A DNA stretch of 64,000 nucleotides from Escherichia coli (GTDB taxonomy: Bacteria > Pseudomonadota > Gammaproteobacteria > Enterobacterales > Enterobacteriaceae), in assembly GCF_030013595.1 (NCBI RefSeq), contig NZ_CP122768.1; one strand, given 5' to 3'. The position numbers were made by a program, and so were the translations under genes. How positions within the stretch are numbered: position 1 is the stretch's first letter; the number at the start of each line of letters is the position of its first letter. Positions 10,375 to 64,000 of this stretch are shown here, piece after piece. Below the pieces are notes generated by a model, which was not told where the DNA came from, did no database searches, and saw only the letters and a list, made by a program, of their open reading frames with translations.

Positions 10375-10378
10375 GATA

Positions 10379-11803
<1,425 letters not shown>

Positions 11804-11806
11804 GGG

Positions 11807-12703
11807 TTATTCCTTGTCTAAAACCTGACGAATAAAGCCGCCGTGTTGATCAAGGCGTTTTTTAGCTTCTGCGGCATCGAGATTTTTCAGCACCATCACA
11901 ATGGCCGTTTTACAGTTGCGCTCGCAGGCAACCAATGCCGCTTCCGCTTGCTCTGCGCTACATCCGGTAGCGTTTTTGACGATATTGACCTGGCGCACAT
12001 GCAATTTTTCGTTGGTGGCGACCACATCGACCATCAGGTTGCCGAACACTTTGCCGGATTTAATCATCAGCCCGGTGGAGAGCATATTGAGCACCAGTTT
12101 CTGCGCCGTACCTGCTTTCATTCGCGAAGAACCTGTGACCACTTCGGCCCCAACAACTGGCGTAATGGCAAACTCAGCGGTGGCTGAAACGGCGCTCCCG
12201 GGATTACAGGAAATTCCCACTGTGCGGCAGCCGAGCTGGCGTGCGTATTCCAGTCCGGCAATTACATACGGCGTGCGACCACTGGCCGCAATGCCAACCA
12301 CCACATCCTGCGCGGTTAAGCCGATGTTTTTCAAATCATTAACACCACCTTCCCGGCTATCTTCAGCGCCTTCCACCGCGTGCTGAATGGCATATTCGCC
12401 TCCAGCAATCAAACCAACCACCAGACCCGGTTTAACGCCGTAGGTGGGCGGACATTCGCTGGCATCCAGAATCCCCAGACGACCGGATGTTCCCGCACCG
12501 AGATAAATCAGACGCCCGCCGCCGCTTACCTGGGCGTGGATAACATCGATCGCCGCGGCGATATCCGGCAGTACGCGCTCAACGGCGAGTGGTACAGTTT
12601 TATCTTCATCGTTGATAATCCGGCACATTTCCAGCGTCGATACGCGGTCAATTTCAGCCGAGGCGGCGTTCGAGCCTTCAGTAATCATCTTTTCAAGTTG
12701 CAT
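11807..12703 (-). CDS. murQ: N-acetylmuramic acid 6-phosphate etherase
   Basis: 298-aa ORF; SIS-domain protein; 3-bp gap to murP start. Confidence 0.93.
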
Positions 12704-12874
12704 CGGTGGTGACCTTACTATTTACGATCAAATAATTGCAGATGTATGGAATCATATATCTCAATTTGCTAGTTTTAAAGGAATCATTGAGTCTGAAATC
12801 ACAGAGTGTGAAGAGCGTCAAAGGGCAAAATCCGTGTGCTATGCTGCGCGCAGGATGTGGTGAGGGAGTGGAAG

Positions 12875-13732
12875 ATGTTGTACCTGACAAAATTACGCAA
12901 TGCAGAAAGTGACTTTACTGAAAATGAGCAAAAGATAGCCGACTTTCTGCAAGCCAGGGTGAGCGAACTGAAATCCGTTTCTTCACGAAATATGGCGAAA
13001 CAGCTCGGTATTAGCCAGTCGAGTATTGTGAAGTTTGCCCAGAAGCTCGGCGCGCAAGGATTTACTGAATTGCGTATGGCGTTAATTGGCGAATACAGTG
13101 CTAGCCGGGAGAAAACGAATGCCACGGCGCTGCACCTGCACAGTTCGATTACCAGTGATGATTCGCTGGAAGTGATTGCCCGCAAATTGAATCGCGAAAA
13201 AGAGCTGGCGCTGGAGCAAACCTGTGCGTTGTTCGACTACGCGCGGTTGCAAAAAATCATTGAGGTCATCAGTAAAGCACCGTTTATCCAGATAACGGGC
13301 CTGGGTGGGTCGGCGCTGGTGGGGCGCGATCTTTCATTCAAACTGATGAAAATTGGTTATCGTGTGGCCTGTGAAGCTGACACGCATGTACAAGCCACCG
13401 TTTCCCAGGCGCTGAAAAAAGGCGATGTACAAATCGCTATCTCTTACAGCGGCAGTAAAAAAGAGATTGTCTTGTGCGCCGAGGCAGCACGAAAGCAGGG
13501 GGCAACGGTGATTGCCATTACCTCGTTAACCGATTCCCCGCTGCGGCGGCTGGCGCATTACACCCTCGATACCGTTTCTGGCGAAACCGAATGGCGCAGC
13601 TCGTCGATGTCCACCCGCACGGCGCAAAATTCTGTTACCGATTTACTGTTTGTTGGCCTTGTGCAACTCAATGATGTGGAGTCATTGAAAATGATTGAGC
13701 GCAGCAGTGAGCTAACGCAACGCCTGAAATGA
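12875..13732 (+). CDS. murR: RpiR-family repressor of murQP
   Basis: 285 aa from ATG 12875 ([14 protein letters not shown]...); N-terminal HTH plus SIS domain; divergent from murQ. Confidence 0.9.
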
Positions 13733-13860
13733 TGCATAAAGCAGCGACTGGATTGAGATTTTCCTGAATTAGTGAGCTGATCCGCAGCAATATTTTGTTT
13801 ATCCTGTATTTTCAGAGGGAATGGAGTGTAACGCTCTGTATTAACAAGGAGAGCATTAAA

Positions 13861-14652
13861 ATGGGTAAACTCACGGGCAAGACAGCACTGATTACGGGCG
13901 CATTGCAGGGAATTGGCGAAGGAATTGCCAGAACTTTTGCGCGTCATGGCGCAAACCTAATCTTGCTGGATATCTCCCCTGAGATCGAAAAGCTGGCGGA
14001 CGAACTGTGTGGTCGTGGTCATCGCTGTACGGCGGTTGTCGCCGATGTGCGTGACCCGGCGTCGGTCGCCGCAGCTATCAAGCGCGCGAAGGAAAAAGAA
14101 GGGCGCATTGATATCCTGGTGAATAACGCAGGCGTTTGTCGTCTGGGCAGTTTCCTCGATATGAGCGATGAAGATCGCGATTTCCATATTGATATCAATA
14201 TTAAAGGCGTATGGAACGTCACGAAGGCGGTGCTGCCGGAGATGATTGCCCGCAAAGATGGTCGCATTGTGATGATGTCTTCAGTCACTGGCGATATGGT
14301 GGCCGATCCGGGTGAAACGGCGTATGCCTTAACGAAAGCGGCGATTGTTGGCCTGACTAAATCGCTGGCGGTGGAGTACGCGCAGTCTGGTATTCGCGTT
14401 AACGCCATCTGCCCGGGATACGTACGCACGCCAATGGCGGAAAGCATTGCCCGCCAGTCGAACCCGGAAGATCCAGAATCGGTGCTGACTGAAATGGCAA
14501 AAGCAATCCCGATGCGTCGCCTCGCCGATCCGCTGGAAGTCGGCGAACTGGCAGCCTTCCTCGCATCGGATGAATCAAGTTATTTAACCGGTACACAGAA
14601 TGTGATTGATGGCGGCAGCACACTGCCGGAGACGGTTAGCGTCGGCATCTGA
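13861..14652 (+). CDS. ucpA: short-chain dehydrogenase/reductase UcpA
   Basis: 263 aa from ATG 13861; SDR cofactor motif TGALQGIG and catalytic YALTKAA. Confidence 0.9.
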   Translation: MGKLTGKTALITGALQGIGEGIARTFARHGANLILLDISPEIEKLADELCGRGHRCTAVVADVRDPASVAAAIKRAKEKEGRIDILVNNAGVCRLGSFLDMSDEDRDFHIDINIKGVWNVTKAVLPEMIARKDGRIVMMSSVTGDMVADPGETAYALTKAAIVGLTKSLAVEYAQSGIRVNAICPGYVRTPMAESIARQSNPEDPESVLTEMAKAIPMRRLADPLEVGELAAFLASDESSYLTGTQNVIDGGSTLPETVSVGI

Positions 14653-14822
14653 TTCACCTCTGTTTCCTCCCTGCATTTGTGGGGAGGATTTCGTCTTGAA
14701 CCCGGTTCTTATTCCCTTTTCAACTTCCAAATCACCAAACGGTATATAAAACCGTTACTCCTTTCACGTCCGTTATAAATATGATGGCTATTAGAAAGTC
14801 ATTAAATTTATAAGGGTGCGCA

Positions 14823-15839
14823 ATGGCCGTTAACTTACTGAAAAAGAACTCACTCGCGCTGGTCGCTTCTCTGCTGCTGGCGGGCCATGTACAGGCAACG
14901 GAACTGCTGAACAGTTCTTATGACGTCTCCCGCGAGCTGTTTGCCGCCCTGAATCCGCCGTTTGAGCAACAATGGGCAAAAGATAACGGCGGCGACAAAC
15001 TGACGATAAAACAATCTCATGCAGGGTCATCAAAACAGGCGCTGGCGATTTTGCAGGGCTTAAAAGCAGACGTTGTCACTTATAACCAGGTGACCGACGT
15101 ACAAATCCTGCACGATAAAGGCAAGCTGATCCCGGCCGACTGGCAGTCGCGCCTGCCGAATAATAGCTCGCCGTTCTACTCCACCATGGGCTTCCTGGTG
15201 CGTAAGGGCAACCCGAAGAATATCCACGACTGGAACGACCTCGTGCGCTCCGACGTGAAGCTGATTTTCCCGAACCCAAAAACCTCCGGTAACGCGCGTT
15301 ATACCTATCTGGCGGCATGGGGCGCAGCGGATAAAGCTGACGGTGGCGACAAAGCCAAAACCGAACAGTTTATGACCCAGTTCCTGAAAAACGTTGAAGT
15401 GTTCGATACTGGCGGTCGTGGCGCGACCACCACTTTTGCCGAGCGCGGCCTGGGCGATGTGCTGATCAGCTTCGAGTCGGAAGTGAACAACATCCGCAAA
15501 CAGTATGAAGCGCAGGGCTTTGAAGTGGTGATTCCGAAAACCAACATTCTGGCGGAATTCCCGGTGGCGTGGGTCGATAAAAACGTGCAGGCCAACGGTA
15601 CGGAAAAAGCAGCAAAAGCCTACCTGAACTGGCTCTACAGCCCGCAGGCGCAGACCATCATCACCGACTATTACTACCGCGTAAATAACCCGGAAGTCAT
15701 GGACAAACTGAAAAACAAATTCCCGCAGACCGAACTGTTCCGCGTGGAAGACAAATTTGGCTCCTGGCCGGAAGTGATGAAAACCCACTTCACCAGCGGC
15801 GGCGAGTTAGACAAGCTGTTAGCGGCGGGGCGTAATTAA
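14823..15839 (+). CDS. cysP: periplasmic thiosulfate-binding protein
   Basis: 338-aa ORF with signal peptide; first gene of cysPUWAM. Confidence 0.93.
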
Positions 15840-16672
15840 TGTTTGCAGTTTCATCAAGACGCGTGCTGCCGGGCTTTACCTTAAGCCTCAGCACCAGTCT
15901 GCTGTTTGTGTGCCTGATTTTGCTGCTGCCGCTCTCCGCGCTGGTGATGCAGCTGGCTCAGATGAGCTGGGCGCAGTACTGGGAGGTGATCACCAACCCG
16001 CAGGTGGTCGCGGCCTACAAAGTGACGCTGCTGTCGGCGTTTGTGGCATCAATTTTTAACGGCGTTTTCGGCCTGCTGATGGCGTGGATTTTAACCCGTT
16101 ATCGCTTTCCGGGCCGCACGCTGCTTGATGCGCTGATGGATTTACCCTTTGCGCTGCCAACGGCAGTCGCCGGTTTAACGCTGGCCTCGCTCTTTTCTGT
16201 AAACGGTTTTTACGGTGAATGGCTGGCGAAGTTTGATATCAAAGTTACCTATACCTGGCTGGGGATTGCGGTGGCGATGGCCTTTACCAGTATTCCATTT
16301 GTGGTGCGTACCGTGCAGCCGGTGCTGGAAGAGTTAGGCCCGGAATATGAAGAAGCGGCAGAAACGCTCGGCGCAACGCGCTGGCAGAGTTTCTGCAAAG
16401 TGGTGCTGCCGGAGCTTTCTCCGGCGCTGGTGGCGGGCGTGGCGCTGTCGTTTACCCGCAGCCTCGGTGAGTTTGGCGCGGTAATTTTTATCGCCGGGAA
16501 CATTGCCTGGAAGACGGAAGTGACGTCGCTGATGATTTTTGTTCGCTTACAGGAGTTTGATTACCCGGCGGCGAGCGCGATTGCTTCGGTGATCCTCGCG
16601 GCATCCCTGCTGCTGCTGTTCTCAATTAACACTCTGCAAAGTCGCTTTGGTCGGCGTGTGGTAGGTCATTAA
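15839..16672 (+). CDS. cysU: sulfate/thiosulfate ABC transporter permease
   Basis: 277-aa polytopic ORF; start ATG overlaps cysP stop by 1 nt (TAATG). Confidence 0.93.
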   Translation: MFAVSSRRVLPGFTLSLSTSLLFVCLILLLPLSALVMQLAQMSWAQYWEVITNPQVVAAYKVTLLSAFVASIFNGVFGLLMAWILTRYRFPGRTLLDALMDLPFALPTAVAGLTLASLFSVNGFYGEWLAKFDIKVTYTWLGIAVAMAFTSIPFVVRTVQPVLEELGPEYEEAAETLGATRWQSFCKVVLPELSPALVAGVALSFTRSLGEFGAVIFIAGNIAWKTEVTSLMIFVRLQEFDYPAASAIASVILAASLLLLFSINTLQSRFGRRVVGH

Positions 16673-17547
16673 TGGCGGAAGTGACACAGTTGAAGCGTTA
16701 TGACGCGCGCCCGATTAACTGGGGCAAATGGTTTCTGATTGGCATCGGGATGCTGGTTTCGGCGTTCATCCTGCTGGTGCCGATGATTTACATCTTCGTG
16801 CAGGCGTTCAGCAAAGGGCTGATGCCGGTTTTACAGAATCTGGCCGATCCGGACATGCTGCACGCCATCTGGCTGACGGTGATGATTGCGCTGATTGCCG
16901 TGCCGGTGAACCTGGTGTTCGGCATTCTGCTGGCCTGGCTGGTGACGCGCTTTAACTTCCCCGGACGCCAGTTGCTGCTGACGCTGCTGGATATTCCGTT
17001 TGCCGTATCGCCGGTGGTTGCCGGTCTGGTGTATCTGCTGTTTTACGGCTCTAACGGCCCGCTCGGTGGCTGGCTGGATGAACATAATCTGCAAATTATG
17101 TTCTCCTGGCCGGGAATGGTGCTGGTCACCATCTTCGTGACGTGTCCGTTTGTGGTGCGTGAGCTGGTGCCGGTGATGTTAAGCCAGGGCAGCCAGGAAG
17201 ACGAAGCGGCAATTTTGCTTGGCGCGTCTGGCTGGCAGATGTTTCGCCGCGTCACGCTGCCGAACATCCGCTGGGCGCTGCTTTATGGCGTGGTGCTGAC
17301 CAACGCCCGCGCGATTGGCGAGTTTGGTGCGGTGTCGGTGGTTTCCGGCTCGATTCGCGGCGAAACACTTTCGCTGCCGTTACAGATTGAATTGCTGGAG
17401 CAGGACTACAACACCGTCGGCTCCTTTACCGCTGCCGCGTTGTTGACGCTGATGGCGATTATCACCCTGTTTTTAAAGAGTATGTTGCAGTGGCGTCTGG
17501 AGAATCAGGAAAAACGCGCGCAGCAGGAGGAACATCATGAGCATTGA
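16672..17547 (+). CDS. cysW: sulfate/thiosulfate ABC transporter permease
   Basis: 291-aa polytopic ORF; start overlaps cysU stop by 1 nt. Confidence 0.93.
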
Positions 17548-18634
17548 GATTGCCAATATTAAGAAGTCTTTTGGTCGCACCCAGGTGCTGAACGATATCT
17601 CACTGGATATTCCTTCTGGTCAGATGGTCGCATTGCTGGGGCCGTCTGGTTCCGGGAAAACCACGCTGCTGCGGATTATCGCCGGGCTGGAGCATCAAAC
17701 CAGCGGGCATATTCGCTTCCACGGCACCGACGTCAGCCGCCTGCATGCGCGCGATCGTAAAGTTGGTTTCGTGTTCCAGCACTATGCGCTGTTCCGCCAT
17801 ATGACGGTGTTCGACAATATCGCTTTCGGCCTGACGGTGCTGCCGCGTCGCGAGCGCCCGAATGCCGCAGCCATCAAAGCGAAAGTGACAAACTTGCTGG
17901 AGATGGTGCAGCTTGCGCATCTGGCGGATCGTTATCCGGCACAGCTTTCCGGCGGGCAGAAACAGCGCGTGGCGCTGGCGCGTGCGCTGGCTGTAGAACC
18001 GCAAATTCTGCTGCTTGATGAACCGTTTGGCGCGCTGGATGCGCAGGTGCGTAAAGAGCTGCGTCGCTGGTTGCGTCAACTGCATGAAGAACTGAAATTT
18101 ACCAGCGTATTCGTGACCCATGACCAGGAAGAAGCGACCGAAGTAGCCGATCGTGTAGTGGTGATGAGCCAGGGCAATATCGAGCAGGCTGATGCGCCGG
18201 ATCAGGTATGGCGCGAACCAGCGACCCGCTTTGTGCTCGAATTTATGGGCGAAGTGAACCGCCTGCAGGGAACCATTCGCGGCGGGCAGTTCCATGTTGG
18301 CGCACATCGCTGGCCGCTGGGCTATACACCTGCGTATCAGGGGCCGGTGGATCTCTTCCTTCGTCCGTGGGAAGTGGATATCAGCCGCCGTACCAGCCTC
18401 GATTCGCCGCTGCCGGTACAGGTACTGGAAGCCAGCCCGAAAGGCCACTACACCCAATTAGTCGTGCAGCCGCTGGGGTGGTACAACGAAGCGCTGACGG
18501 TCGTGATGCACGGCGACGACGCCCCGCAACGTGGCGAGCGTTTATTCGTTGGTCTGCAACATGCGCGGCTGTATAACGGCGACGAGCGTATTGAAACCCG
18601 CGATGAGGAACTTGCTCTCGCACAAAGCGCCTGA
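17537..18634 (+). CDS. cysA: sulfate/thiosulfate ABC transporter ATP-binding protein
   Basis: 365-aa ORF; Walker [13 protein letters not shown] signature [15 protein letters not shown]; overlaps cysW by 11 nt. Confidence 0.95.
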
Positions 18635-18700
18635 TAGGTTGAGTGAATGTTAAACGCCCGGAGGCGCTTCCCGCGATCCGGGCTTTTTAATGGCAAGGTT

Positions 18701-18750
18701 TGTAACCTGTAGGCCTGATAAGACGCGCAAGCGTCGCATCAGGCAACACC
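18701..18750. repeat. REP (repetitive extragenic palindromic) element
   Basis: GCCTGATAAGACGCG...CGTCGCATCAGGC imperfect palindrome between cysA and cysM. Confidence 0.8.
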
Positions 18751-18767
18751 ACGTATGGACAGAGATC

Positions 18768-19679
18768 GTGAGTACATTAGAACAAACAATTGGCAATACG
18801 CCTCTGGTGAAGTTGCAGCGAATGGGGCCGGATAACGGCAGTGAAGTGTGGTTAAAACTGGAAGGCAATAACCCGGCAGGTTCGGTGAAAGATCGTGCGG
18901 CGCTTTCGATGATCGTCGAGGCGGAAAAGCGCGGGGAAATTAAACCGGGTGACGTGCTGATCGAAGCCACCAGTGGTAACACCGGCATTGCGCTGGCAAT
19001 GATTGCCGCGCTTAAAGGCTATCGCATGAAATTGCTGATGCCCGACAACATGAGCCAGGAACGTCGTGCGGCGATGCTGGCATACGGTGCGGAACTGATT
19101 CTTGTCACCAAAGAGCAGGGCATGGAAGGTGCGCGCGATCTGGCGCTGGAGATGGCGAATCGTGGTGAAGGAAAGCTGCTCGATCAGTTCAATAATCCCG
19201 ATAACCCTTACGCCCATTACACCACTACCGGGCCGGAAATCTGGCAGCAAACTGGCGGGCGCATTACCCATTTTGTCTCCAGCATGGGAACAACCGGCAC
19301 CATCACCGGCGTGTCACGCTTTATGCGCGAACAATCCAAACCGGTGACCATTGTCGGCCTGCAACCGGAAGAGGGCAGCAGCATTCCCGGCATTCGCCGC
19401 TGGCCTGCGGAATATCTGCCGGGGATTTTCAACGCTTCGCTGGTGGATGAGGTGCTGGATATTCATCAGCGCGATGCAGAAAACACCATGCGCGAACTGG
19501 CAGTGCGGGAAGGAATATTCTGTGGCGTCAGCTCCGGCGGCGCGGTTGCCGGAGCACTGCGCGTGGCAAAAGCTAACCCCGGCGCGGTGGTTGTGGCGAT
19601 CATCTGCGATCGCGGCGATCGCTACCTCTCCACCGGCGTGTTTGGGGAAGAACACTTTAGCCAGGGGGCGGGGATTTAA
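18768..19679 (+). CDS. cysM: cysteine synthase B (O-acetylserine sulfhydrylase B)
   Basis: 303 aa from GTG 18768 (MSTLEQTIGNTPLV...); PLP-lysine motif GSVKDRAA. Confidence 0.92.
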   Translation: MSTLEQTIGNTPLVKLQRMGPDNGSEVWLKLEGNNPAGSVKDRAALSMIVEAEKRGEIKPGDVLIEATSGNTGIALAMIAALKGYRMKLLMPDNMSQERRAAMLAYGAELILVTKEQGMEGARDLALEMANRGEGKLLDQFNNPDNPYAHYTTTGPEIWQQTGGRITHFVSSMGTTGTITGVSRFMREQSKPVTIVGLQPEEGSSIPGIRRWPAEYLPGIFNASLVDEVLDIHQRDAENTMRELAVREGIFCGVSSGGAVAGALRVAKANPGAVVVAIICDRGDRYLSTGVFGEEHFSQGAGI

Positions 19680-19681
19680 GA

Positions 19682-20141
<460 letters not shown>

Positions 20142-20154
20142 GAGAAAAAATTAA

Positions 20155-21006
20155 ATGAGTAGTTTGTTGTTGTTTAACGATAAGAGCAGGGCGCTGCAGG
20201 CGGATATCGTCGCCGTGCAGTCGCAGGTGGTTTACGGCAGCGTGGGCAACAGCATTGCCGTGCCTGCTATCAAACAGAACGGCCTGAATGTCTTTGCCGT
20301 GCCGACGGTATTGCTGAGCAATACGCCGCATTATGACACTTTCTACGGTGGTGCGATTCCGGACGAATGGTTTAGCGGCTATTTGCGTGCGCTTCAGGAG
20401 CGTGATGCGCTGCGCCAACTTCGTGCTGTAACCACGGGCTATATGGGAACGGCATCGCAAATCAAAATCCTTGCCGAGTGGCTGACTGCGCTACGCAAAG
20501 ACCATCCTGACCTATTGATCATGGTCGATCCGGTGATTGGCGATATTGACAGCGGAATTTATGTCAAACCTGACCTTCCCGAGGCGTATCGACAATATTT
20601 ACTGCCGCTGGCGCAGGGAATTACCCCCAATATCTTTGAGCTGGAAATCCTGACCGGTAAAAATTGCCGCGATCTCGACAGTGCCATTGCTGCCGCAAAA
20701 AGTCTGCTTTCAGACACATTAAAATGGGTGGTGATTACCAGCGCCTCCGGTAATGAAGAAAATCAGGAGATGCAGGTGGTGGTGGTGAGTGCCGACAGCG
20801 TGAATGTCATTTCCCATTCACGGGTAAAAACCGACCTGAAAGGGACTGGCGACCTGTTTTGTGCTCAGCTTATCAGTGGTTTGCTGAAAGGGAAGGCGTT
20901 AAACGATGCGGTGCACCGTGCGGGGTTGCGCGTACTGGAAGTGATGCGCTACACCCAGCAGCATGAGAGCGATGAATTGATTTTGCCGCCGTTGGCGGAA
21001 GCATAA
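20155..21006 (+). CDS. pdxK: pyridoxal/pyridoxine/pyridoxamine kinase
   Basis: 283-aa ORF ([33 protein letters not shown]...); ribokinase-like PdxK family. Confidence 0.92.
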
Positions 21007-55395: not shown

Positions 55396-57093
55396 TCAAA
55401 GCAATAATGTAGCCTGTGAGGCGACTGGGGTGCGTTGGTTAGGAATGTAAAACGCAATTTCCGTTCCTGGTTCCAGGCGGCGGATATGCAGCCCCTCGCC
55501 ATACAATAACTTCACACGATGATGGACATTCAGCAGGCCAATTTTATTGCCCGGCATTTCATTCGCTTCGACCCGCTCAATCACCTTTGGATCGATGCCG
55601 TGCCCGGTATCTCGCACCGCAATACGTACCCGATTACCGCACTCTGCAACGCTGATGGTGACAACGCCTTTACCTTTGCAAGGCTGGATACCGTGGACAA
55701 TGGCGTTTTCCACCAACGGCTGGATCAGCAGGCTGGGAATGCAGCAATTCACCTCTTCATCAATATCATAGATAACCGTCAGCTTGTCGCCAAAGCGGGC
55801 CTGCTCAATGGCAATATAGTCTTTAATTTGATACAGCTCTTTTTTGATATCGATTTGCTCATCGTCTTTTAATTCAATGTTATAGCGCAGATAACGCGAC
55901 AGATTAAAGATCAGCTGGCGAGCGGTATCCGGATTCAGACGGATTGACGATGAAATAGCGTTCAAAGCGTTAAACAGGAAATGGGGATTAATTTTGCTTT
56001 GCAGGGCGCGAAGCTCTGCCTTATTTGCCATTTCACGTAGCTGCTCGGCGCGTGAAACCTCCAGTTGCGTGGAGATGATTTGCGACAGACCGACCGCCAT
56101 TTCCTGTAATGATGACGTAATCTGATGCGCGTGGCAGTAGTAAATTTTCAGTGTTCCGGTCACAACGCCTTTCTCCCACAATGGGATCACCAGCATGGAA
56201 TGAATCTCTGGTGTGCGGTGGGCTTCATCATTGTTTTTAATGATGATTTTTCCGTAATTCATCGCCTGTCGGGTAGTCGGGCTAATGAAGTCATCGCCAT
56301 TCTGATAGTTGTGTTCACCCACGCCAACATAGGCCAGCACATGATCGGTATTGGTAATCGCCACCGCATCGGCATGAATATCATCGCGGATAATTTCACA
56401 AACTTTGCGTAATGACTCGCTATTGACATGGCGAAACAGCGGCAGCGTTTTGTTGGCGATATCCAGCGCCAGCTTGGCCTGCCGCGCGGCGCTGGCCTCT
56501 TTTTCGCCCTCAACGCTTTGCACCAGCAGCACAATAAAGCCGATACAGACGCTACCGAGGATCATCGGAATCCCGATTTTAGAGACGATATCGATCCCCA
56601 ACGCGGTAGTTGGTGCCCAGACAATCACCAGAATCATGGTCAACGTTTCACATAACATGCCGCCGAGAATACCGACGCGCCAGCGCTGTGCTTTGGGGAT
56701 TTTCAGGTTGATCCAGCCCGATATACAACCCGCCAGAATGCTGGTGATAAAGCAGGGGATCGCCGTCACGCCGCCGATATCAATTAAATACCGGTGAATA
56801 CCCGCAATCACGCCGGTAATGATGCCTACCCACGGGCCAAACAGAATCCCGCCTGACATCACCGCGATAATACGAACGTTCACTAGCGAGCCTTCTACGG
56901 GAACGCCGGACCAGGTGCTGAACAGGGCAAACAGCGAGAAAATGGCGGTAACAGCGAGCAACTCTTTTGGGGAGTGCGCCGACTTGTGCAACAGTTCGCG
57001 AAACAGGCGGATACGGATGAGAAAGAACAGGCAGATAAGCATTAACGCTGCCCGATCGAAGACCGCCAGCAGCATGTTGAATATTTCGTGCAC
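55396..57093 (-). CDS. ypdA: LytS-type sensor histidine kinase
   Basis: 565-aa ORF from GTG; multi-TM N-terminus, GAF-like middle, His-kinase H-box region [18 protein letters not shown] and ATPase domain. Confidence 0.88.
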
Positions 57094-57469
57094 GGGTGAC
57101 TCTGAATAAGGATTAAACCTCTATGATAGGTAACCTGAAGGCTGATGACCAGCAGGCCGTTTTTGAGGAAAAACCACAATTTTAAAAGGGGATTGAAAGA
57201 TAAATGGTGTATTAGCAATGCATCTCTTGATAATGCACATCTGCTTGGTAAATTTATTGAAATTATAATGTTAATAAAATGAGTGGTAATTTTCTTGTTA
57301 GCGCAGATAAATTTCCTGTTTTTGAAGTGGAGTTCCTCATTTAAAGCCATTGATAAAAATGTTCTAAAACGCTGGACAGACAGAAATTAATCAGGCTATT
57401 TTCAAAACAGCCACCATCGTGGCAGCGTCGCTCGGACGGTCCGGGCGCTAACGTTAATCTGAGGAAATT

Positions 57470-58708
57470 ATGGCTGACACTCGCCCTGAACGTCGCTTTA
57501 CGCGCATTGATCGTCTCCCGCCCTACGTTTTTAATATTACCGCTGAACTGAAAATGGCTGCGCGTCGGCGCGGCGAAGATATTATCGATTTCAGTATGGG
57601 TAACCCGGACGGTGCGACTCCGCCGCATATCGTCGAAAAATTATGTACGGTGGCCCAGCGCCCGGACACGCATGGTTACTCCACGTCACGCGGCATTCCG
57701 CGGCTACGTCGCGCCATTTCCCGCTGGTATCAGGATCGCTACGACGTCGAGATCGACCCGGAATCAGAAGCCATCGTCACCATTGGTTCGAAAGAGGGAC
57801 TGGCGCATCTGATGCTGGCGACGCTGGATCATGGTGACACTGTACTAGTGCCTAATCCAAGCTACCCGATTCATATTTACGGCGCGGTGATTGCCGGGGC
57901 GCAGGTACGCTCAGTGCCGCTGGTGGAAGGTGTCGATTTCTTCAACGAACTGGAACGCGCCATTCGCGAAAGTTATCCGAAACCGAAGATGATGATCCTC
58001 GGCTTCCCGTCGAACCCAACCGCGCAATGCGTGGAACTGGAATTCTTTGAGAAGGTTGTGGCGCTGGCAAAACGCTACGATGTGCTGGTGGTCCATGACC
58101 TGGCCTATGCCGATATCGTCTACGATGGCTGGAAAGCGCCGTCAATCATGCAGGTGCCGGGCGCACGCGACGTGGCGGTCGAGTTCTTTACCCTGTCGAA
58201 AAGTTACAACATGGCGGGCTGGCGTATCGGCTTTATGGTTGGCAACAAAACGCTGGTCAGCGCGTTGGCACGTATTAAAAGCTATCACGATTACGGCACC
58301 TTTACGCCGTTGCAGGTGGCAGCGATTGCGGCGCTGGAGGGCGATCAACAGTGCGTGCGCGACATTGCTGAACAGTACAAACGCCGCCGTGATGTACTGG
58401 TAAAAGGGCTGCATGAAGCGGGCTGGATGGTCGAAATGCCGAAGGCTTCGATGTATGTCTGGGCGAAAATCCCGGAACCGTATGCTGCCATGGGCTCGCT
58501 GGAATTTGCCAAGAAGCTGCTGAACGAAGCGAAGGTCTGTGTCTCTCCGGGGATTGGCTTTGGCGACTACGGCGACACGCATGTTCGCTTTGCACTGATT
58601 GAAAACCGCGACCGTATTCGTCAGGCGATTCGTGGGATTAAAGCGATGTTCCGTGCCGATGGTTTACTACCCGCCAGCAGCAAACATATTCACGAAAACG
58701 CGGAATAA
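57470..58708 (+). CDS. alaC: glutamate-pyruvate aminotransferase
   Basis: 412-aa ORF; fold-type I aminotransferase with PLP-lysine in [14 protein letters not shown]. Confidence 0.9.
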
Positions 58709-58726
58709 ACACCGACCTCAAAAATG

Positions 58727-58756
58727 CAAACAGGAGCCTGATGGCTCCTGTTTTTC
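58727..58756 (+). terminator. intrinsic terminator after alaC
   Basis: CAGGAGCC-TGAT-GGCTCCTG hairpin followed by TTTTTCATT. Confidence 0.7.
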
Positions 58757-58772
58757 ATTGCACAGTTTGCTT

Positions 58773-58844
58773 TTAGATCATCAGGGCAAAAGTACCGGCC
58801 CAAACGATGACCATAAAAGAAATGCCCATAAAGAAATATTTCAC
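58773..58844 (-). CDS. ypdK: 23-aa small membrane protein YpdK
   Basis: GTG 58842-58844 with GGAGAG RBS upstream; translation MKYFFMGISFMVIVWAGTFALMI; stop TAA 58773-58775; below the 60-aa track cut-off. Confidence 0.65.
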   Translation of the reverse strand: MKYFFMGISFMVIVWAGTFALMI

Positions 58845-59129
58845 TTTACATCTCTCCGCGTAATTACTGTTACGCCTGAATGACTTCATTACACCTGATA
58901 CAGTGAGTTGACACCGGGCAAAACGACCTTAAAAGTCCTGTATTTTACCGTGGGCATCACCCCAGAATTCTGAGCTAAACTGCTCCAGACGGCGCTAATG
59001 TACGCCTAAAACTGAAACGAGACAAGAGGCATTTTCTTATTTACTTTTAGTAACTTACAGGTGTCTCATATCGGCGACAGTTTAATTTCTGACGGTAATA
59101 ATTAGAGATTCAGCGAAGGAAAAAACCTT

Positions 59130-59167
59130 AAGAAAAAAGCCATAAAAACCATGAGGTTATTATGGCT
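59130..59167 (-). terminator. intrinsic terminator after lpxP
   Basis: 8-bp stem AGCCATAA (59138-59145) / TTATGGCT (59158-59165), followed on the minus strand by a U-run (plus-strand A-run 59132-59137). Confidence 0.55.
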
Positions 59168-59199
59168 GATTTGAGGAGGGAAAGAGTAAGAGCAGTTTG

Positions 59200-60120
59200 T
59201 TAAATGTATAGCGACGATTCTCCCACCGGGCGCGTTTTAAAGCGACGGTGGATCCAGAGGTACTGCTCCGGTGCGCGCATGATCTCTTTTTCGATAATCT
59301 TGTTCATATAGGCAGCGGCTTGATTTTCATCTGCCGGGTAGCCTTCCATCTCTGGGGTGATGTACAAACGATATCCGCTGTAATCCGCTTTTCTTACCAT
59401 CGTTACGGTTAACATGGCTGCGCCAGAGAGACGTGAAAGGACATACGTACCATTGGTTGTGGCGACATTTTCCACCGCAAAGAACGGCGCGAAGGAGCTG
59501 CCTTTACGACCATAATCCTGATCGGGAGCAAACCATACCGCTTCACCTTTCTTCAGTGCACCAACAATGCCGCGCAGATTATTTCTGCCGATCATCGCTT
59601 TGTTAGAGCGCATGCGCCCACGGGTCTGCACCCATTCCATCAGCTGATTATTATGTGGACGATAGGTAGCCATCATTGGTTGACACAGTCCCATCACGCG
59701 GCCGCCCAGTTCCAGCGACATAAAATGGACGCCGACAACCATTACGCCGCGATTTTGCATTTGTGCGTGTTTAAGGTTATCCAGCCCTTCAACATCAAAC
59801 CATTTGCGTACGCGACTGTCGGGCCAGAACCACGCCATGCCGGTTTCTACCAGCGCCATGCCGAGTGAACGAAAGTTTTCGGCGATCATCTTCTCGCGCT
59901 CTTCAGCAGAATGCTGCGGGAAACAAAGTTCCAGGTTTTTACGGGCGATAGATTCACGCCGTTTCAGGAATGGTCGCGCCATTGCGCCAATACGCGTGCC
60001 GAGAAAGCAGAGAACAGGATAAGGAAGCTGTACCCAAAGCCAGAGTACACCAAGCCCAAACCATGTGAGCCAGTAGCGAGGATGCAGAAACTCGCGGGAA
60101 AATTTGCATTTTGGAAACAT
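59200..60120 (-). CDS. lpxP: lipid A palmitoleoyl-ACP acyltransferase (cold-induced)
   Basis: 306 aa from ATG 60118-60120 (MFPKCKFSREFLHPRYWLTWFGLGVLWLW...); LpxL/LpxP late acyltransferase family. Confidence 0.9.
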   Translation of the reverse strand: MFPKCKFSREFLHPRYWLTWFGLGVLWLWVQLPYPVLCFLGTRIGAMARPFLKRRESIARKNLELCFPQHSAEEREKMIAENFRSLGMALVETGMAWFWPDSRVRKWFDVEGLDNLKHAQMQNRGVMVVGVHFMSLELGGRVMGLCQPMMATYRPHNNQLMEWVQTRGRMRSNKAMIGRNNLRGIVGALKKGEAVWFAPDQDYGRKGSSFAPFFAVENVATTNGTYVLSRLSGAAMLTVTMVRKADYSGYRLYITPEMEGYPADENQAAAYMNKIIEKEIMRAPEQYLWIHRRFKTRPVGESSLYI

Positions 60121-60472
60121 AGTTACCTTCTGTAGATACGAATTGTTGTATCGCAGAAGATTCCATGTCGACAGCGGTACACTCAATTGGTTGGGCCATC
60201 ATGTACGACAATGGTTCCTGTAAAGAGTGTAAAGACTAGTCAGGACATAACCACGAGGAGCATGAATGCGGTATCTGTACTTTATCACTGGCTGACTGCT
60301 TTCAGCTACTGATTATTAATCGTGCAAAGTAAATATTTTTCCGTACGCAACAGTCTTGCATTTAACATGCTGTTTTCATTGATGCTTAGCAAAAATTGCC
60401 AGAGGTTAAGGATTGTCTTACTATTAAAGTGACTGAAGTTACAGGTTTTTTAGCGCGGCAGGAGGTTGAGCT

Positions 60473-60715
60473 ATGATTTATTTATGGATGTTTCTCGCCC
60501 TGTGTATTGTCTGCGTAAGCGGATACATCGGTCAGGTACTGAACGTGGTCTCGGCGGTCTCTTCTTTCTTCGGCATGGTGATCCTCGCTGCACTCATTTA
60601 CTACTTCACCATGTGGTTAACAGGCGGTAATGAACTAGTGACGGGGATATTTATGTTTCTTGCCCCGGCTTGTGGCTTGATGATTCGCTTTATGGTGGGG
60701 TATGGCAGGCGGTAG
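60473..60715 (+). CDS. yfdY: small inner membrane protein YfdY
   Basis: 80-aa ORF with RBS GGAGG upstream; predicted TM helices. Confidence 0.85.
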   Translation: MIYLWMFLALCIVCVSGYIGQVLNVVSAVSSFFGMVILAALIYYFTMWLTGGNELVTGIFMFLAPACGLMIRFMVGYGRR

Positions 60716-60791
60716 TAGTTCAGGATGGATCATTTGGGCAGGTGCTCACATCATCAACAGATATGATTGTTCACCTGCCATGTGACAGACG

Positions 60792-61067
60792 CTATCGCAC
60801 AGGATGAATAAGATAATTCGCCTTTGTCGGAAAAGGGGGCGTGATGTCTTCTGTGAGATTTAATGGTGGCGCATCTTCTCTCATCTTAAACAAAATCGCC
60901 TGTGATGGCTGAAGTTTTGTAGAATGAGTTGTCGTCATCACTGACGTTTTTTCTGTCTCTTTATAGCTCGTCTCACTTCCACCACCAGAAATGGAAAATG
61001 CAAAAACATTGCATGCCATAATAGAGACCAATAAAAATAAGCTAAAAAGCATTAAGTTTACTTTCAT
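60792..61067 (-). CDS. ypdI: putative lipoprotein YpdI
   Basis: 91-aa ORF; signal peptide with lipobox-like IMACN. Confidence 0.85.
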   Translation of the reverse strand: MKVNLMLFSLFLLVSIMACNVFAFSISGGGSETSYKETEKTSVMTTTHSTKLQPSQAILFKMREDAPPLNLTEDITPPFPTKANYLIHPVR

Positions 61068-61209
61068 AGAAAGTTATCCTGAGAATGGCTCACTGAGAAC
61101 CTACGATGTTATGGCTGTATTTACATTTAATTAATCAGTATTTACATCGATATAATAAATGACATCTCTTTGTGGTATATAAGAATAGTTCTCTGCGACA
61201 GGAAGCATA

Positions 61210-61227
61210 TTCCTACAATTGTAAGAC
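61210..61227 (+). promoter_or_regulatory. EvgA-box-like inverted repeat upstream of yfdX
   Basis: TTCCTACAATTGTAAGAC fits the remembered EvgA consensus TTCYTACA-NN-TGTARGAA at 16 of 18 positions; a second partial copy CTACAACTGTAAGAT lies about 61253-61267. Confidence 0.5.
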
Positions 61228-61362
61228 TAAAATACTTCTTGCGATAATAACTACAACTGTAAGATAACCCTTTCAAAATGACCGTTGCTCTCTGATTTCT
61301 CATTTCATGCTCACCCAATATGATGGCGGCGTTTTCTAAAACTGTTAAAGAATGAGGTAAGT

Positions 61363-61995
61363 ATGAAACGTTTAATTATGGCTACGATGGTCACAGCAAT
61401 TCTGGCATCTTCAACTGTATGGGCGGCTGATAATGCACCGGTAGCGGCACAACAGCAAACTCAGCAAGTTCAGCAAACCCAGAAAACGGCAGCAGCAGAG
61501 CGTATCTCTGAACAAGGTTTATATGCGATGCGTGACGTGCAGGTAGCGCGCCTGGCTCTGTTTCATGGCGATCCGGAAAAGGCAAAAGAACTGACCAATG
61601 AAGCTTCAGCTTTGTTGTCAGATGACAGTACCGAATGGGCAAAGTTCGCTAAGCCAGGTAAAAAAACCAATGTCAATGATGACCAATATATTGTCATTAA
61701 TGCATCTATCGGAATTTCTGAGAGTTATGTAGCGACACCCGAAAAAGAAGCCGCGATAAAAATTGCCAACGAAAAAATGGCGAAAGGGGATAAAAAGGGC
61801 GCAATGGAAGAGCTTCGCCTGGCCGGTGTTGGCGTAATGGAAAACCAATATCTGATGCCGCTCAAACAGACTCGTAATGCACTTGCTGATGCGCAGAAAC
61901 TGCTTGATAAAAAGCAATACTACGAGGCAAACCTGGCGCTTAAAGGTGCGGAAGATGGAATCATCGTCGATAGCGAAGCACTGTTTGTGAACTAA
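61363..61995 (+). CDS. yfdX: periplasmic protein YfdX
   Basis: 210-aa ORF; signal peptide [21 protein letters not shown]. Confidence 0.9.
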
Positions 61996-62238
61996 TGCTG
62001 ACAGGCAGTATATTGAGGTAAAGGATTTAACTCCCTCCAGCCGACAATTTTTTATGACCACAATACGACAGATTGTGGTCATAAAATTATTTGGCGCTCG
62101 CGGTTCTATAAACTCGCATTTTATCTTCCTCAAAGTAAACCGCAATAATCCCGTGTCATCACAAATCATTTATTATGTTATGTTTTATGGTACGCTTTAA
62201 AAAGCGTAATCATACCCTTACTTGTAAATCACCGGCGC

Positions 62239-62256
62239 TTCTTACAGTTGTAAGAA
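62239..62256 (+). promoter_or_regulatory. EvgA-box-like inverted repeat upstream of frc
   Basis: TTCTTACAGTTGTAAGAA is a perfect 8-NN-8 inverted repeat matching the remembered consensus TTCYTACA-NN-TGTARGAA. Confidence 0.5.
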
Positions 62257-62507
62257 TAACATCACAAATGTCGCGGCTCTCTCTGATTACCGCGAACCAA
62301 TATTTATCATATTCTTCTTTTCGTCCTCACTACTTACCATGCAGAAAGGAATTGGAAGTGGCGATGAAATAATTTTCAGCACTTGATACAGGAATTTAAA
62401 AATATCGAGTGCAGCTACGACGATATTTTGCGGATTATTTATAGAGGGCGTTATGCCTTAAATAAACGCTAAATTAACATATATTTAATTAACTAATAGG
62501 TATTGCT

Positions 62508-63758
62508 ATGTCAACTCCACTTCAAGGAATTAAAGTTCTCGATTTCACCGGTGTGCAATCTGGCCCATCTTGTACTCAAATGCTGGCCTGGTTTGGCGCT
62601 GACGTCATTAAAATTGAACGTCCCGGCGTTGGTGACGTAACGCGTCACCAGCTGCGAGATATTCCTGATATCGATGCGCTTTACTTCACCATGCTTAACA
62701 GTAACAAACGTTCTATTGAATTAAATACCAAAACAGCGGAAGGCAAAGAGGTAATGGAAAAGCTGATCCGCGAAGCTGATATCTTAGTCGAGAACTTTCA
62801 TCCTGGGGCCATTGATCACATGGGCTTCACCTGGGAGCATATTCAAGAAATCAATCCACGTCTGATTTTTGGTTCGATCAAAGGGTTTGATGAGTGTTCG
62901 CCTTATGTGAATGTAAAAGCCTATGAAAACGTTGCTCAGGCAGCGGGTGGCGCGGCATCCACTACGGGTTTTTGGGACGGTCCGCCGCTGGTAAGCGCTG
63001 CAGCGTTGGGTGACAGCAACACCGGAATGCATTTACTGATCGGTTTACTTGCTGCTTTGCTGCATCGCGAAAAAACGGGGCGTGGGCAACGAGTCACCAT
63101 GTCAATGCAGGATGCCGTATTGAACCTTTGCCGCGTGAAATTACGCGACCAGCAGCGTCTCGATAAATTGGGTTATCTGGAAGAATACCCGCAGTATCCG
63201 AATGGCACATTTGGTGATGCAGTTCCCCGCGGAGGTAATGCGGGTGGTGGCGGTCAGCCTGGCTGGATCCTGAAATGTAAAGGCTGGGAAACCGATCCTA
63301 ACGCCTATATTTATTTCACTATTCAGGAGCAAAACTGGGAAAACACCTGTAAAGCCATCGGCAAACCAGATTGGATTACCGATCCGGCATACAGTACAGC
63401 CCATGCCCGACAGCCACATATTTTCGATATTTTTGCTGAAATCGAAAAATACACTGTCACTATTGATAAACATGAAGCGGTGGCCTATTTGACTCAGTTT
63501 GATATTCCTTGTGCACCGGTTTTAAGTATGAAAGAAATTTCACTTGATCCCTCTTTGCGCCAAAGTGGCAGTGTTGTTGAAGTGGAACAACCGTTGCGTG
63601 GAAAATATCTGACAGTTGGTTGTCCAATGAAATTCTCTGCCTTTACGCCGGATATTAAAGCTGCGCCGCTATTAGGTGAACATACCGCTGCTGTATTGCA
63701 GGCGCTGGGTTATAGCGACGATGAAATTGCTGCAATGAAGCAAAACCACGCCATCTGA
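62508..63758 (+). CDS. frc: formyl-CoA:oxalate CoA-transferase
   Basis: 416-aa ORF ([40 protein letters not shown]...), family III CoA-transferase. Confidence 0.92.
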
Positions 63759-63811
63759 TATTAACGGGGGCTTCTGGCTCCCAATTTATAAAAATTTCGA
63801 GGTTATTAATC

Positions 63812-64000
63812 ATGTCAGATCAACTTCAAATGACAGATGGTATGCATATCATCGTTGAAGCATTAAAACAGAATGATATTGACACTATTTATGGTGTTGT
63901 AGGTATTCCTGTGACGGATATGGCACGCCATGCCCAGGCGGAAGGCATTCGTTATATTGGTTTTCGTCATGAGCAGTCGGCAGGCTATGCCGCTGCGGCA
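63812..64000 (+). CDS. oxc: oxalyl-CoA decarboxylase, 5' end only (continues beyond window end)
   Basis: ATG 63812; [62 protein letters not shown], the N-terminal domain of a ThDP-dependent enzyme; downstream of frc. Confidence 0.85.

What the first reader, a model, noticed from the sequence alone, without database searches (positions are those of the whole stretch)
61210..61268. EvgA-box-like palindromes upstream of yfdX
TTCCTACAATTGTAAGAC (61210-61227) matches the EvgA consensus as I recall it, TTCYTACA-NN-TGTARGAA, at 16 of 18 positions. A second partial repeat CTACAACTGTAAGAT lies about 25 bp downstream, both within the AT-rich region about 100-150 bp upstream of the yfdX start. This fits EvgA-dependent acid-resistance control of the yfdX-frc-oxc cluster.
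Basis: partly seen in the sequence, partly recalled or inferred. Interest (0 to 1): 0.3.

Follow-up and report, generated by a model that had tools for sequence, protein, structure and literature searches.

The report
Known EvgA operator sites before yfdX

Summary
TTCCTACAATTGTAAGAC (61210-61227) has one mismatch to TTCYTACA-NN-TGTARGAA, so it matches 17 of 18 positions, not 16. TAACTACAACTGTAAGAT (61248-61265) has three mismatches. A perfect third copy lies upstream of frc (62239-62256). These are the only matches with three or fewer mismatches in 64 kb.

The window is E. coli: ypdA-alaC-lpxP-yfdY-ypdI<>yfdX-frc. A matrix built from four unlinked K-12 EvgA-target promoters ranks the three sites 1, 2 and 4 of 63,983 positions. 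Across nine diverse E. coli strains every consensus-matching base is invariant. Four of the five variable columns are NN spacer positions. EvgA-like boxes also precede yfdX in Yersinia vastinensis and in Buttiauxella, each next to an evgA homologue.

Papers already state that EvgA~P directly activates PyfdX and binds inverted repeats before yfdX and yfdWUVE, so this is already known.

One refinement is inferred, not shown. EvgA-target promoters share a fixed layout: box, 25 nt, TCYKATTT, about 20 nt, then a -10. On that layout the weaker box 2 is placed for yfdX, and the stronger box 1 is placed for the divergent gene ypdI, which is co-expressed with the EvgA regulon.

The parts
61210..61227 (.). 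Box 1: 18-bp EvgA-type inverted repeat, TTCCTACAATTGTAAGAC
   Evidence: It has 1 mismatch to the consensus. It ranks 2 of 63,983 with a matrix from unlinked K-12 sites. Only the second N of the spacer varies in 9 E. coli strains. It is identical in K-12.
61248..61265 (.). Box 2: weaker EvgA-type inverted repeat, TAACTACAACTGTAAGAT
   Evidence: It has 3 mismatches and ranks 3-4 by matrix score. Its variable columns are the two N positions and one non-consensus position. It is the box in the canonical register with the yfdX core promoter.
61291..61298 (+). Promoter-proximal element TCTGATTT, 25 nt after box 2 (inferred -40 to -33 region of PyfdX)
   Evidence: The same offset carries TCCTATTT, TCTTATTT, TCCTATTC or TCCTCTGT in the K-12 safA, ydeP, yegR and emrK promoters. 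Matrix P is about 0.002-0.004 at this single tested offset. It is invariant in 9 E. coli strains and in Y. vastinensis.
61319..61324 (+). Candidate -10 hexamer TATGAT of PyfdX (predicted TSS about 61331, not measured)
   Evidence: The promoter scan gives TTCTCA-16-TATGAT. TAnnnT occurs at the same offset from the box in all EvgA-target promoters compared. It is invariant in E. coli and Y. vastinensis and aligns with TATTCT in Buttiauxella.
61177..61184 (-). Promoter-proximal element TCTTATAT on the minus strand, 25 nt after box 1 in the ypdI direction
   Evidence: Matrix P is about 0.001-0.0025 at the single tested offset. One of 8 columns varies in 9 E. coli strains.
61152..61157 (-). Candidate -10 hexamer TATTAT of PypdI on the minus strand (predicted TSS about 61145, not measured)
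   Evidence: TAnnnT sits at index 27 after the element, as in safA, ydeP and emrK. None of its 6 columns varies.
60792..61067 (-). ypdI coding sequence (91 aa lipoprotein), divergent from yfdX
   Evidence: ORF; RefSeq annotation. It belongs to the EvgA iModulon (b2376) and is co-induced with yfdX, yegR, ydeO and emrK.
61363..61995 (+). yfdX coding sequence (210 aa)
   Evidence: ORF; annotation.
62050..62086 (+). Terminator-like hairpin after yfdX (15-bp stem, 7-nt loop, TTATTT tail)
   Evidence: I2. It separates yfdX from the frc unit.
62239..62256 (.). Perfect EvgA box TTCTTACAGTTGTAAGAA upstream of frc
   Evidence: It has 0 mismatches and ranks 1 of 63,983. Only a spacer N varies in E. coli. 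A 1-mismatch counterpart exists in Y. vastinensis.
62282..62289 (+). Promoter-proximal element TCTGATTA, 25 nt after the frc box
   Evidence: P about 0.013-0.022.
62310..62315 (+). Candidate -10 hexamer TATTCT of Pfrc (predicted TSS about 62322, not measured)
   Evidence: It has the same offset from the box as in PyfdX and the Buttiauxella PyfdX, and it is invariant in 9 E. coli strains.
62508..63758 (+). frc (yfdW) coding sequence, first gene of frc-oxc-yfdV-yfdE
   Evidence: ORF; annotation.

Best explanation
Both palindromes are operator sites for a dimer of the NarL/FixJ-family response regulator EvgA. They lie in the AT-rich divergent control region between ypdI (minus strand) and yfdX (plus strand) of E. 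coli.

When EvgS senses mild acidity it phosphorylates EvgA. EvgA~P then binds the 18-bp inverted repeat TTCYTACA-NN-TGTARGAA and activates weak sigma-70 promoters from an upstream position. The box centre is inferred to lie about 74 bp before the start site.

A third, perfect box does the same job for frc-oxc-yfdV-yfdE, downstream of a yfdX terminator.

What is shown: the motif match, its statistical enrichment, its position-specific conservation within and between genera, its linkage to evgAS, and the published direct activation of PyfdX by EvgA~P.

What is inferred: the two boxes are two back-to-back operators rather than a tandem pair. Box 2 is in the regulon's standard register for PyfdX. 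Box 1 is in the same register, on the other strand, for PypdI.
For: Motif and chance.

Independent matrix: sites with 2 or fewer mismatches lie upstream of K-12 emrK/evgA, safA, ydeP, yegR, frc and yfdX. A matrix from the four unlinked sites ranks the window's sites 1, 2 and 4.

Selection: in 9 diverse E. coli strains, 5 of 54 box columns vary and 4 of those are NN spacer positions (hypergeometric P about 2e-4). By contrast 8 of 20 inter-box columns and 38 of 142 upstream columns vary.

Cross-genus: Y. vastinensis carries the whole yfdX-to-evgSA island with boxes at the same positions. Five of the six Buttiauxella species compared have TTCTGACAWATGTMRGAC (2-3 mismatches) or a 4-mismatch variant at -121 of yfdX; B. 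sp. A111 is more degenerate. All six have a 69-71% identical evgA homologue about 4 kb away, and in four of them it is preceded by its own box with 3 or fewer mismatches.

[quoted passage not shown] An EvgA binding site is found in all directly regulated genes (PMC4283999).

Expression: the EvgA iModulon holds b2371-b2376, that is yfdE to yfdX plus ypdI. yfdX (9.8x) and ypdI (5.5x) are co-induced with yegR, ydeO and emrK.

Architecture: promoters anchored on the box share TCYKATTT at offset 25 and TAnnnT 27-29 nt further on. This is true for box 2(+), box 1(-), frc(+), Buttiauxella proximal(+) and distal(-). It is true for none of 9 opposite-direction controls.
Against: No binding, footprint or transcription-start data could be obtained here. 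The primary papers (Masuda & Church 2002/2003, Itou et al. 2009) are not held, and no usable genome-wide TSS table could be reached.

The consensus used is recalled. It was validated only indirectly, by its hits in K-12.

The box-to-promoter assignment rests on sequence geometry. Several of the compared promoters look paralogous (safA/ydeP; yfdX/frc), so they are not fully independent samples.

Box 1 is still fairly well kept in Y. vastinensis, which has no ypdI (arsBC lies upstream). Box 1 may therefore also contribute to yfdX.

evgAS itself lies beyond the end of the window.
Confidence: 0.9

Rival explanations
1. Both boxes act together on PyfdX only. Box 1 would be a high-affinity primary site and box 2 a weaker promoter-proximal site filled cooperatively, as for the homologue BvgA at Bordetella promoters. 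On this view ypdI is not driven from box 1.
For: Both boxes lie upstream of yfdX and both are conserved. Box 1 is largely retained in Y. vastinensis, where no divergent gene exists. Buttiauxella also has two adjacent boxes. The literature names yfdX, not ypdI, as the direct target.
Against: The centre-to-centre spacing is 38 bp, about 3.6 helical turns, and is 39 bp in one contig. That is not a face-of-helix or side-by-side arrangement. Box 1 has the regulon's downstream element and a -10 at the standard offsets on the minus strand only. ypdI is co-expressed with the EvgA regulon. This rival is not exclusive of the main model.
Confidence: 0.3
2. Only box 1 is a functional EvgA site. Box 2 is a non-functional partial repeat, either a relic or a chance match.
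For: Box 2 has 3 mismatches, all in the outer TTC of the left half plus the last base. One unrelated window site scores about as high with the 4-site matrix (rank 3).
Against: The CTACA..TGTAAGAT core of box 2 is invariant in 9 E. coli strains, while the 20 bp just upstream vary at 8 positions, and its variable columns are the spacer Ns. It is retained in Y. vastinensis. It is the box that sits in the standard register with TCTGATTT and the TATGAT -10, exactly as the perfect frc box and the Buttiauxella yfdX box do.
Confidence: 0.1
3. The palindromes are bound mainly by another LuxR/FixJ-type regulator with a similar TCYTA/TARGA half-site, such as RcsB (with RcsA or GadE), rather than by EvgA.
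For: RcsB regulates and binds the yfdX promoter in Klebsiella pneumoniae (PMC6394985). GAAGCATATTCCTA (61202-61215), overlapping box 1, resembles the RcsAB box TaAGaatatTCctA as I recall it. ypdI is linked to colanic acid, an Rcs-controlled trait (annotation).
Against: The half-site spacing and orientation match the EvgA box, not the RcsAB box. The same 18-mer precedes the established EvgA targets in K-12. The left part of the Rcs-like string is not conserved in Y. vastinensis and varies in E. coli. Direct EvgA~P activation of PyfdX is published. RcsB could still be an additional input.
Confidence: 0.05
4. The matches are chance palindromes in AT-rich intergenic DNA.
For: The region is 31-36% GC, and short palindromes are common in such DNA.
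Against: None of 100 shuffles gave even one match with 1 or fewer mismatches, against 2 observed. All three hits with 3 or fewer mismatches cluster at this locus. The conservation is position-specific. Boxes recur across genera.
Confidence: 0.01

Closest known systems
EvgA box of the E. coli EvgS/EvgA regulon (18-bp inverted repeat TTCPyTACA-NN-TGTAPuGAA; Masuda & Church 2003 and Itou et al. 2009, as cited in PMC3720670 and PMC5706723)
   Same: The sequence, the 2-bp central spacer and the location upstream of yfdX and of frc (yfdW) are the same. Box 1, box 2 and the frc box are base-for-base identical to the K-12 sites. Published EvgA binding and direct activation refer to this very promoter.
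   Different: Nothing essential differs, because this is the same element in a non-K-12 strain. Possible additions from this work are that box 2 is a second operator, that each box is assigned to one of the two divergent promoters, and that a fixed downstream element TCYKATTT exists. I could not check whether the primary papers already describe these.
BvgA binding sites of Bordetella (inverted TTTCCTA heptads at fha, bvg and ptx promoters). BvgA is EvgA's close homologue. This comparison rests on my own knowledge, not on a tool result.
   Same: The half-site core (TTCYTA) is the same. A dimer binds an inverted repeat, activation comes from well upstream of the -35, and there is more than one site per control region.
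   Different: At BvgA promoters, several dimers fill adjacent sites, about 22 bp apart, down to the -35 of one promoter. Here the two sites are 38 bp apart and appear to face opposite promoters. No cooperative array is evident.
KvhAS/KvgAS-linked yfdX-hdeDB locus of Klebsiella (PMC6394985) and the equivalent Buttiauxella locus found here
   Same: yfdX sits next to an EvgAS-type two-component system and is divergent from acid-chaperone genes. In Buttiauxella two EvgA-like boxes lie back to back, each in the standard register with one of the divergent promoters.
   Different: The partner divergent gene is hdeDB rather than ypdI. The boxes are 20 bp rather than 38 bp apart, the half-site is TCTGACA rather than TCYTACA, and in Klebsiella the regulator shown to bind is RcsB.

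Membership tests
EvgA box (EvgA regulon operator) | An 18-bp inverted repeat matching TTCYTACA-NN-TGTARGAA | tested here: met
   Box 1 has 1 mismatch, box 2 has 3 and the frc box has 0. A matrix from unlinked K-12 sites ranks them 2, 4 and 1 of 63,983. The consensus itself is recalled and was validated only through its K-12 hits.
EvgA box (EvgA regulon operator) | Lies in the upstream region of a gene whose expression depends on EvgA | tested here: met
   The sites lie in the ypdI-yfdX intergenic region and upstream of frc. yfdX, frc, oxc, yfdV, yfdE and ypdI are all in the EvgA iModulon. PyfdX is used as a direct EvgA~P reporter.
EvgA box (EvgA regulon operator) | Specific binding of EvgA (gel shift or footprint) | not testable with these tools
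   [quoted passage not shown] The primary papers are not held.
EvgA box (EvgA regulon operator) | The cognate evgAS genes are present in the genome | tested here: inconclusive
   The window ends just past frc, so evgAS is outside it. In K-12 and in the 98%-similar E. coli locus L002, evgS and evgA lie 6-10 kb downstream of yfdX. [quoted passage not shown]
EvgA box (EvgA regulon operator) | Conserved in orthologous promoters, with substitutions tolerated only at non-contact (N) positions | tested here: met
   Tested on 9 diverse E. coli strains plus 4 metagenome contigs, on Y. vastinensis and on Buttiauxella.
EvgA-dependent promoter architecture (defined here, not a published family) | Box, then 25 nt, then TCYKATTT, then 19-21 nt, then TAnnnT, in the direction of the regulated gene | tested here: met
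   The layout is met by box 2 towards yfdX, box 1 towards ypdI and the frc box towards frc. It is not met in the opposite directions. The start sites that would anchor the -10 assignment are not measured.
RcsAB box | A 14-bp TaAGaatatTCctA with outward-facing half-sites and a 4-bp centre (recalled) | tested here: inconclusive
   GAAGCATATTCCTA at 61202-61215 matches about 12 of 14 by eye. Its left half varies in E. coli and is lost in Y. vastinensis. No matrix was available.

The most novel reading that the evidence does not exclude
The two palindromes are not a tandem pair for yfdX. They are two independent, back-to-back EvgA operators. The strong box 1 drives the divergent orphan lipoprotein gene ypdI, and the weak box 2 drives yfdX. 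Each uses a fixed EvgA-promoter layout: the box centre about 74 bp upstream of the start and a second conserved element TCYKATTT abutting the -35. That layout is shared by the whole EvgA regulon and recurs at the hdeDB<>yfdX region of Buttiauxella.
Probability: 0.45. Interest if true: 0.3.

Novelty: already known. Interest (0 to 1): 0.15.

Why it matters
This confirms that the first-stage reader can recognise a genuine, published transcription-factor operator from raw sequence. Biologically it adds little, because EvgA control of yfdX and of frc-oxc-yfdV-yfdE has been in the literature since 2002-2009.

The modest added value is a testable promoter map. It predicts which of the two boxes serves yfdX and which serves ypdI. 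It also identifies a conserved element next to the -35 that may be a further contact for EvgA or RNA polymerase. Both points bear on how PyfdX reporters, which are widely used to read out EvgS activity, should be designed.

Tried and rejected
Primary papers: I tried to read Itou 2009 and Masuda & Church 2002 (by PubMed id and by PMC151933) and Eguchi 2007. None is held.

Full-text searches: searches for the consensus string or 'EvgA box' found nothing useful.

Measured start sites: the Cappable-seq GTF is truncated, Conway 2014 has no held supplement, and a text search gave nothing.

Genome scan: the scan with YfdX returned only 9 loci.

ypdI across species: YpdI homologues are confined to Escherichia/Shigella. 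The most divergent YpdI proteins sit behind near-identical E. coli promoters, so this gave no cross-species test.

Alternative promoter: I considered a class-II promoter, TTGTAA-18-TGcGATAAT (61219-61248), overlapping box 1. I do not favour it. It would put the box centre at about -37, over the -35 hexamer, and no other EvgA target shows that geometry. However, TTGCGATAAT is invariant and remains unexplained.

RNA: an Rfam scan of 56000-64000 found nothing credible.

Pairwise alignment: the MAFFT alignment of the yfdX and frc upstream regions aligned box 1 with the frc box. Anchored comparison shows that box 2 is the true positional counterpart.

Full report
**What is in the sequence**

The window around the finding is E. 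coli DNA. It covers ypdA, alaC, lpxP, yfdY, ypdI (60792-61067, minus strand), yfdX (61363-61995, plus strand) and frc (62508-63758). This rests on the ORFs, megablast hits in 5,422 of 5,426 complete E. coli genomes and RefSeq annotation. Identity to K-12 is about 97%.

The quoted strings are present.
- Box 1, TTCCTACAATTGTAAGAC, lies at 61210-61227.
- Box 2, as an 18-mer TAACTACAACTGTAAGAT, lies at 61248-61265.

Against TTCYTACANNTGTARGAA they have 1 and 3 mismatches.

A third, perfect copy, TTCTTACAGTTGTAAGAA, lies at 62239-62256, 251 bp before the frc start codon.

**Is it more than chance?**

- These three are the only matches with 3 or fewer mismatches in 64 kb on both strands, against 0.53 expected. 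All three lie within 1.05 kb.
- At 1 mismatch or fewer there are 2 matches. None of 100 dinucleotide-preserving shuffles gave any.
- The repeat finder, which knows nothing of the consensus, groups the three as one family.

**Is the recalled consensus the right one?**

I could not read the primary papers, so I tested the consensus on K-12. Within the loci fetched, sites with 2 or fewer mismatches fall upstream of emrK/evgA, safA-ydeO, ydeP, yegR, frc and yfdX. These are the genes known as EvgA targets.

The one other such hit lies inside mdtE.

A symmetrised matrix built only from the four unlinked sites (emrK/evgA, safA, ydeP, yegR) ranks the window's frc box first, box 1 second and box 2 fourth of 63,983 positions.

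**Conservation**

I aligned the window, K-12 and seven further E. coli strains, spanning 96-99% identity to the window.

| Segment | Variable columns |
|---|---|
| Box 1 | 1 of 18 (the second spacer N) |
| Box 2 | 3 of 18 (both spacer Ns and one non-consensus position) |
| frc box | 1 of 18 (a spacer N) |
| 20 bp between boxes 1 and 2 | 8 of 20 |
| 142 bp upstream of box 1 | 38 of 142 |

Four of the five variable box columns fall on the six N positions out of 54. The hypergeometric P is about 2e-4.

Between genera:
- A Yersinia vastinensis contig carries the whole island yfdX-frc-oxc-yfdV-yfdE-evgS-evgA at 82-96% protein identity. It has boxes at the same positions.
- Six Buttiauxella species have yfdX (about 58% identity) divergent from hdeDB. 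An evgA homologue (69-71% identity) lies about 4 kb away, and in four of the six it is preceded by its own box with 3 or fewer mismatches.
- In those species TTCTGACAWATGTMRGAC sits at -121 of yfdX.

**Literature**

[quoted passage not shown] 2009.
- PMC4283999 notes that an EvgA binding site is found in all directly regulated genes.
- The EvgA iModulon in the supplement of PMC10833566 contains b2371-b2375 (yfdE, yfdV, oxc, frc, yfdX) and also b2376, which is ypdI.

The finding is therefore a rediscovery of a published operator.

**Anatomy and mechanism**

A 15-bp-stem hairpin with a T-rich tail follows yfdX at 62050-62086, and frc has its own perfect box. Together these mean that yfdX and frc-oxc-yfdV-yfdE are two EvgA-controlled units. 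This agrees with PMC3720670.

Anchoring the EvgA-target promoters on their boxes, in the direction of the regulated gene, reveals a fixed layout:
- the box;
- exactly 25 nt;
- an 8-mer, TCYKATTT: TCCTATTT in safA, TCTTATTT in ydeP, TCCTATTC in yegR, TCCTCTGT in emrK, TCTGATTA in frc;
- a TAnnnT hexamer 27-29 nt after the start of that 8-mer.

If the hexamer is the -10, the 8-mer abuts the -35 region, at about -40 to -33. The box centre then sits near -74. That is an upstream-activator position in front of a poor -35.

I trained an 8-mer matrix on the four unlinked K-12 promoters and tested single fixed offsets.

| Test case | Element at offset 25 | P | TAnnnT |
|---|---|---|---|
| Box 2, plus direction (yfdX) | TCTGATTT | about 0.002 | TATGAT, 61319-61324 |
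| Box 1, minus direction (ypdI) | TCTTATAT | about 0.001 | TATTAT, 61157-61152 |
| frc box, plus direction | TCTGATTA | about 0.013 | TATTCT |
| Buttiauxella proximal box, towards yfdX | TCTGATTT | about 0.002 | TATTCT |
| Buttiauxella distal box, towards hdeD | TCTTATTT | below 0.0001 | TACCAT |

None of nine opposite-direction controls has a TAnnnT at these offsets. Those controls include box 1 towards yfdX and box 2 towards ypdI.

The ypdI-side hexamer is invariant, and its 8-mer varies at 1 of 8 columns in E. coli.

ypdI is co-induced with yfdX, yegR, ydeO and emrK in an independent array study, at 5.5x against 9.8x for yfdX (PMC5811628).

My reading is that the two palindromes are two back-to-back operators. 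Box 2 serves PyfdX and box 1 serves PypdI. Their centres are 38 bp apart, which is not a helical repeat. One metagenome contig has a 1-bp insertion between them.

This part is inference. No transcription start could be obtained. Several of the compared promoters look paralogous. Box 1 is also still fairly well kept in Y. vastinensis, which has arsBC rather than ypdI upstream, so a contribution of box 1 to yfdX is not excluded.

**Rivals**

- A cooperative tandem pair acting only on yfdX remains possible (about 0.3) and is not exclusive of the main model.
- A non-functional box 2 is unlikely, given its conservation and register.
- A different LuxR-type regulator such as RcsB may be an additional input: RcsB binds PyfdX in Klebsiella, and an RcsAB-like string overlaps box 1. 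It does not explain the EvgA-type spacing or the regulon-wide recurrence.
- Chance is excluded.

**Verdict**

The element is already known, so interest is low. The only possibly new content is the assignment of each box to one of the two divergent promoters, together with the conserved -35-proximal element. Both are testable by start-site mapping and box-specific mutations.

Noticed in passing
window 62239-62256: A perfect EvgA box, TTCTTACAGTTGTAAGAA, lies 251 bp upstream of frc. It is the best site in the whole window and has the same downstream layout as the yfdX promoter (TCTGATTA at 62282-62289, TATTCT at 62310-62315). This implies a frc leader of about 185 nt.
   Followed up: yes
window 61291-61298, 61177-61184 (minus) and 62282-62289; K-12 loci L011-L013: A conserved 8-mer, TCYKATTT, lies exactly 25 nt downstream of the EvgA box in every EvgA-target promoter compared, just upstream of the presumed -35. 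'CA' at 8-9 nt after the box is also shared by 7 of 7 promoters. This may be an extra EvgA half-site (TCYTA) or an RNA polymerase contact. I do not know whether it has been described.
   Followed up: partly
window 61239-61248: TTGCGATAAT is invariant in all E. coli strains and in Y. vastinensis, although the 10 bp before it are hypervariable. It reads as an extended -10 (TGcGATAAT) with TTGTAA 18 bp upstream, overlapping box 1. Its function is unexplained. It could be a constitutive or EvgA-occluded promoter, or a flank of box 2.
   Followed up: partly
window 60792-61067 (ypdI): ypdI is unusually variable. 23% of its CDS columns vary among 9 E. coli strains, against 9% for yfdX. YpdI proteins range down to 46-71% identity, yet they sit behind near-identical promoters. 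Homologues were found only in Escherichia/Shigella.
   Followed up: partly
window 62050-62086: A perfect 15-bp inverted repeat with a 7-nt loop and a T-rich tail follows yfdX. It is a likely intrinsic, possibly bidirectional, terminator separating yfdX from frc. Rfam gives only a spurious miRNA hit there.
   Followed up: partly
window 61202-61215: GAAGCATATTCCTA, overlapping the left half of box 1, resembles the RcsAB box (TaAGaatatTCctA, recalled). This is of interest because RcsB controls yfdX in Klebsiella and ypdI is linked to colanic acid. The left half is not conserved outside E. coli.
   Followed up: no
L003 (Yersinia vastinensis NZ_CACVAF010000001.1) 9369-20611: A Yersinia genome carries the complete E. 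coli-type yfdX-frc-oxc-yfdV-yfdE-evgS-evgA island (82-96% protein identity) directly after arsB-arsC and without ypdI. This looks like horizontal transfer of the regulator together with its targets.
   Followed up: no
L004-L009 (Buttiauxella spp.) about 9700-14900: The arrangement is hdeB-hdeD <> yfdX ... evgS-like, evgA-like. Two EvgA-like boxes lie 20 bp apart between hdeD and yfdX, and in four of the six species a further box with 3 or fewer mismatches lies upstream of the evgA homologue. This resembles the kvhAS-yfdX-hdeDB locus of Klebsiella.
   Followed up: partly
L010 (Limosilactobacillus vaginalis scaffold NZ_GG693475.1, 241 bp): A 241-bp scaffold in a Lactobacillus assembly encodes the YfdX C-terminus at 100% identity to E. 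coli. This is almost certainly assembly contamination.
   Followed up: no
L014 5887-5904 (K-12 mdtE coding region): TTCTTACGCATGAAAGAA, with 2 mismatches to the EvgA consensus, lies inside mdtE. No site with 3 or fewer mismatches was seen in the gadE upstream region fetched.
   Followed up: no
window 61453-61485: Three tandem 9-bp units (CAGCAAACT-like) inside yfdX encode the Gln-rich stretch [11 protein letters not shown] after the signal peptide. K-12 YfdX is one residue longer (211 aa against 210 aa).
   Followed up: no
hits H1 and H14: Some E. coli strains carry IS elements (IS4-like ISVsa5, IS1A) inserted within this 1.9-kb ypdI-yfdX-frc stretch.
   Followed up: no
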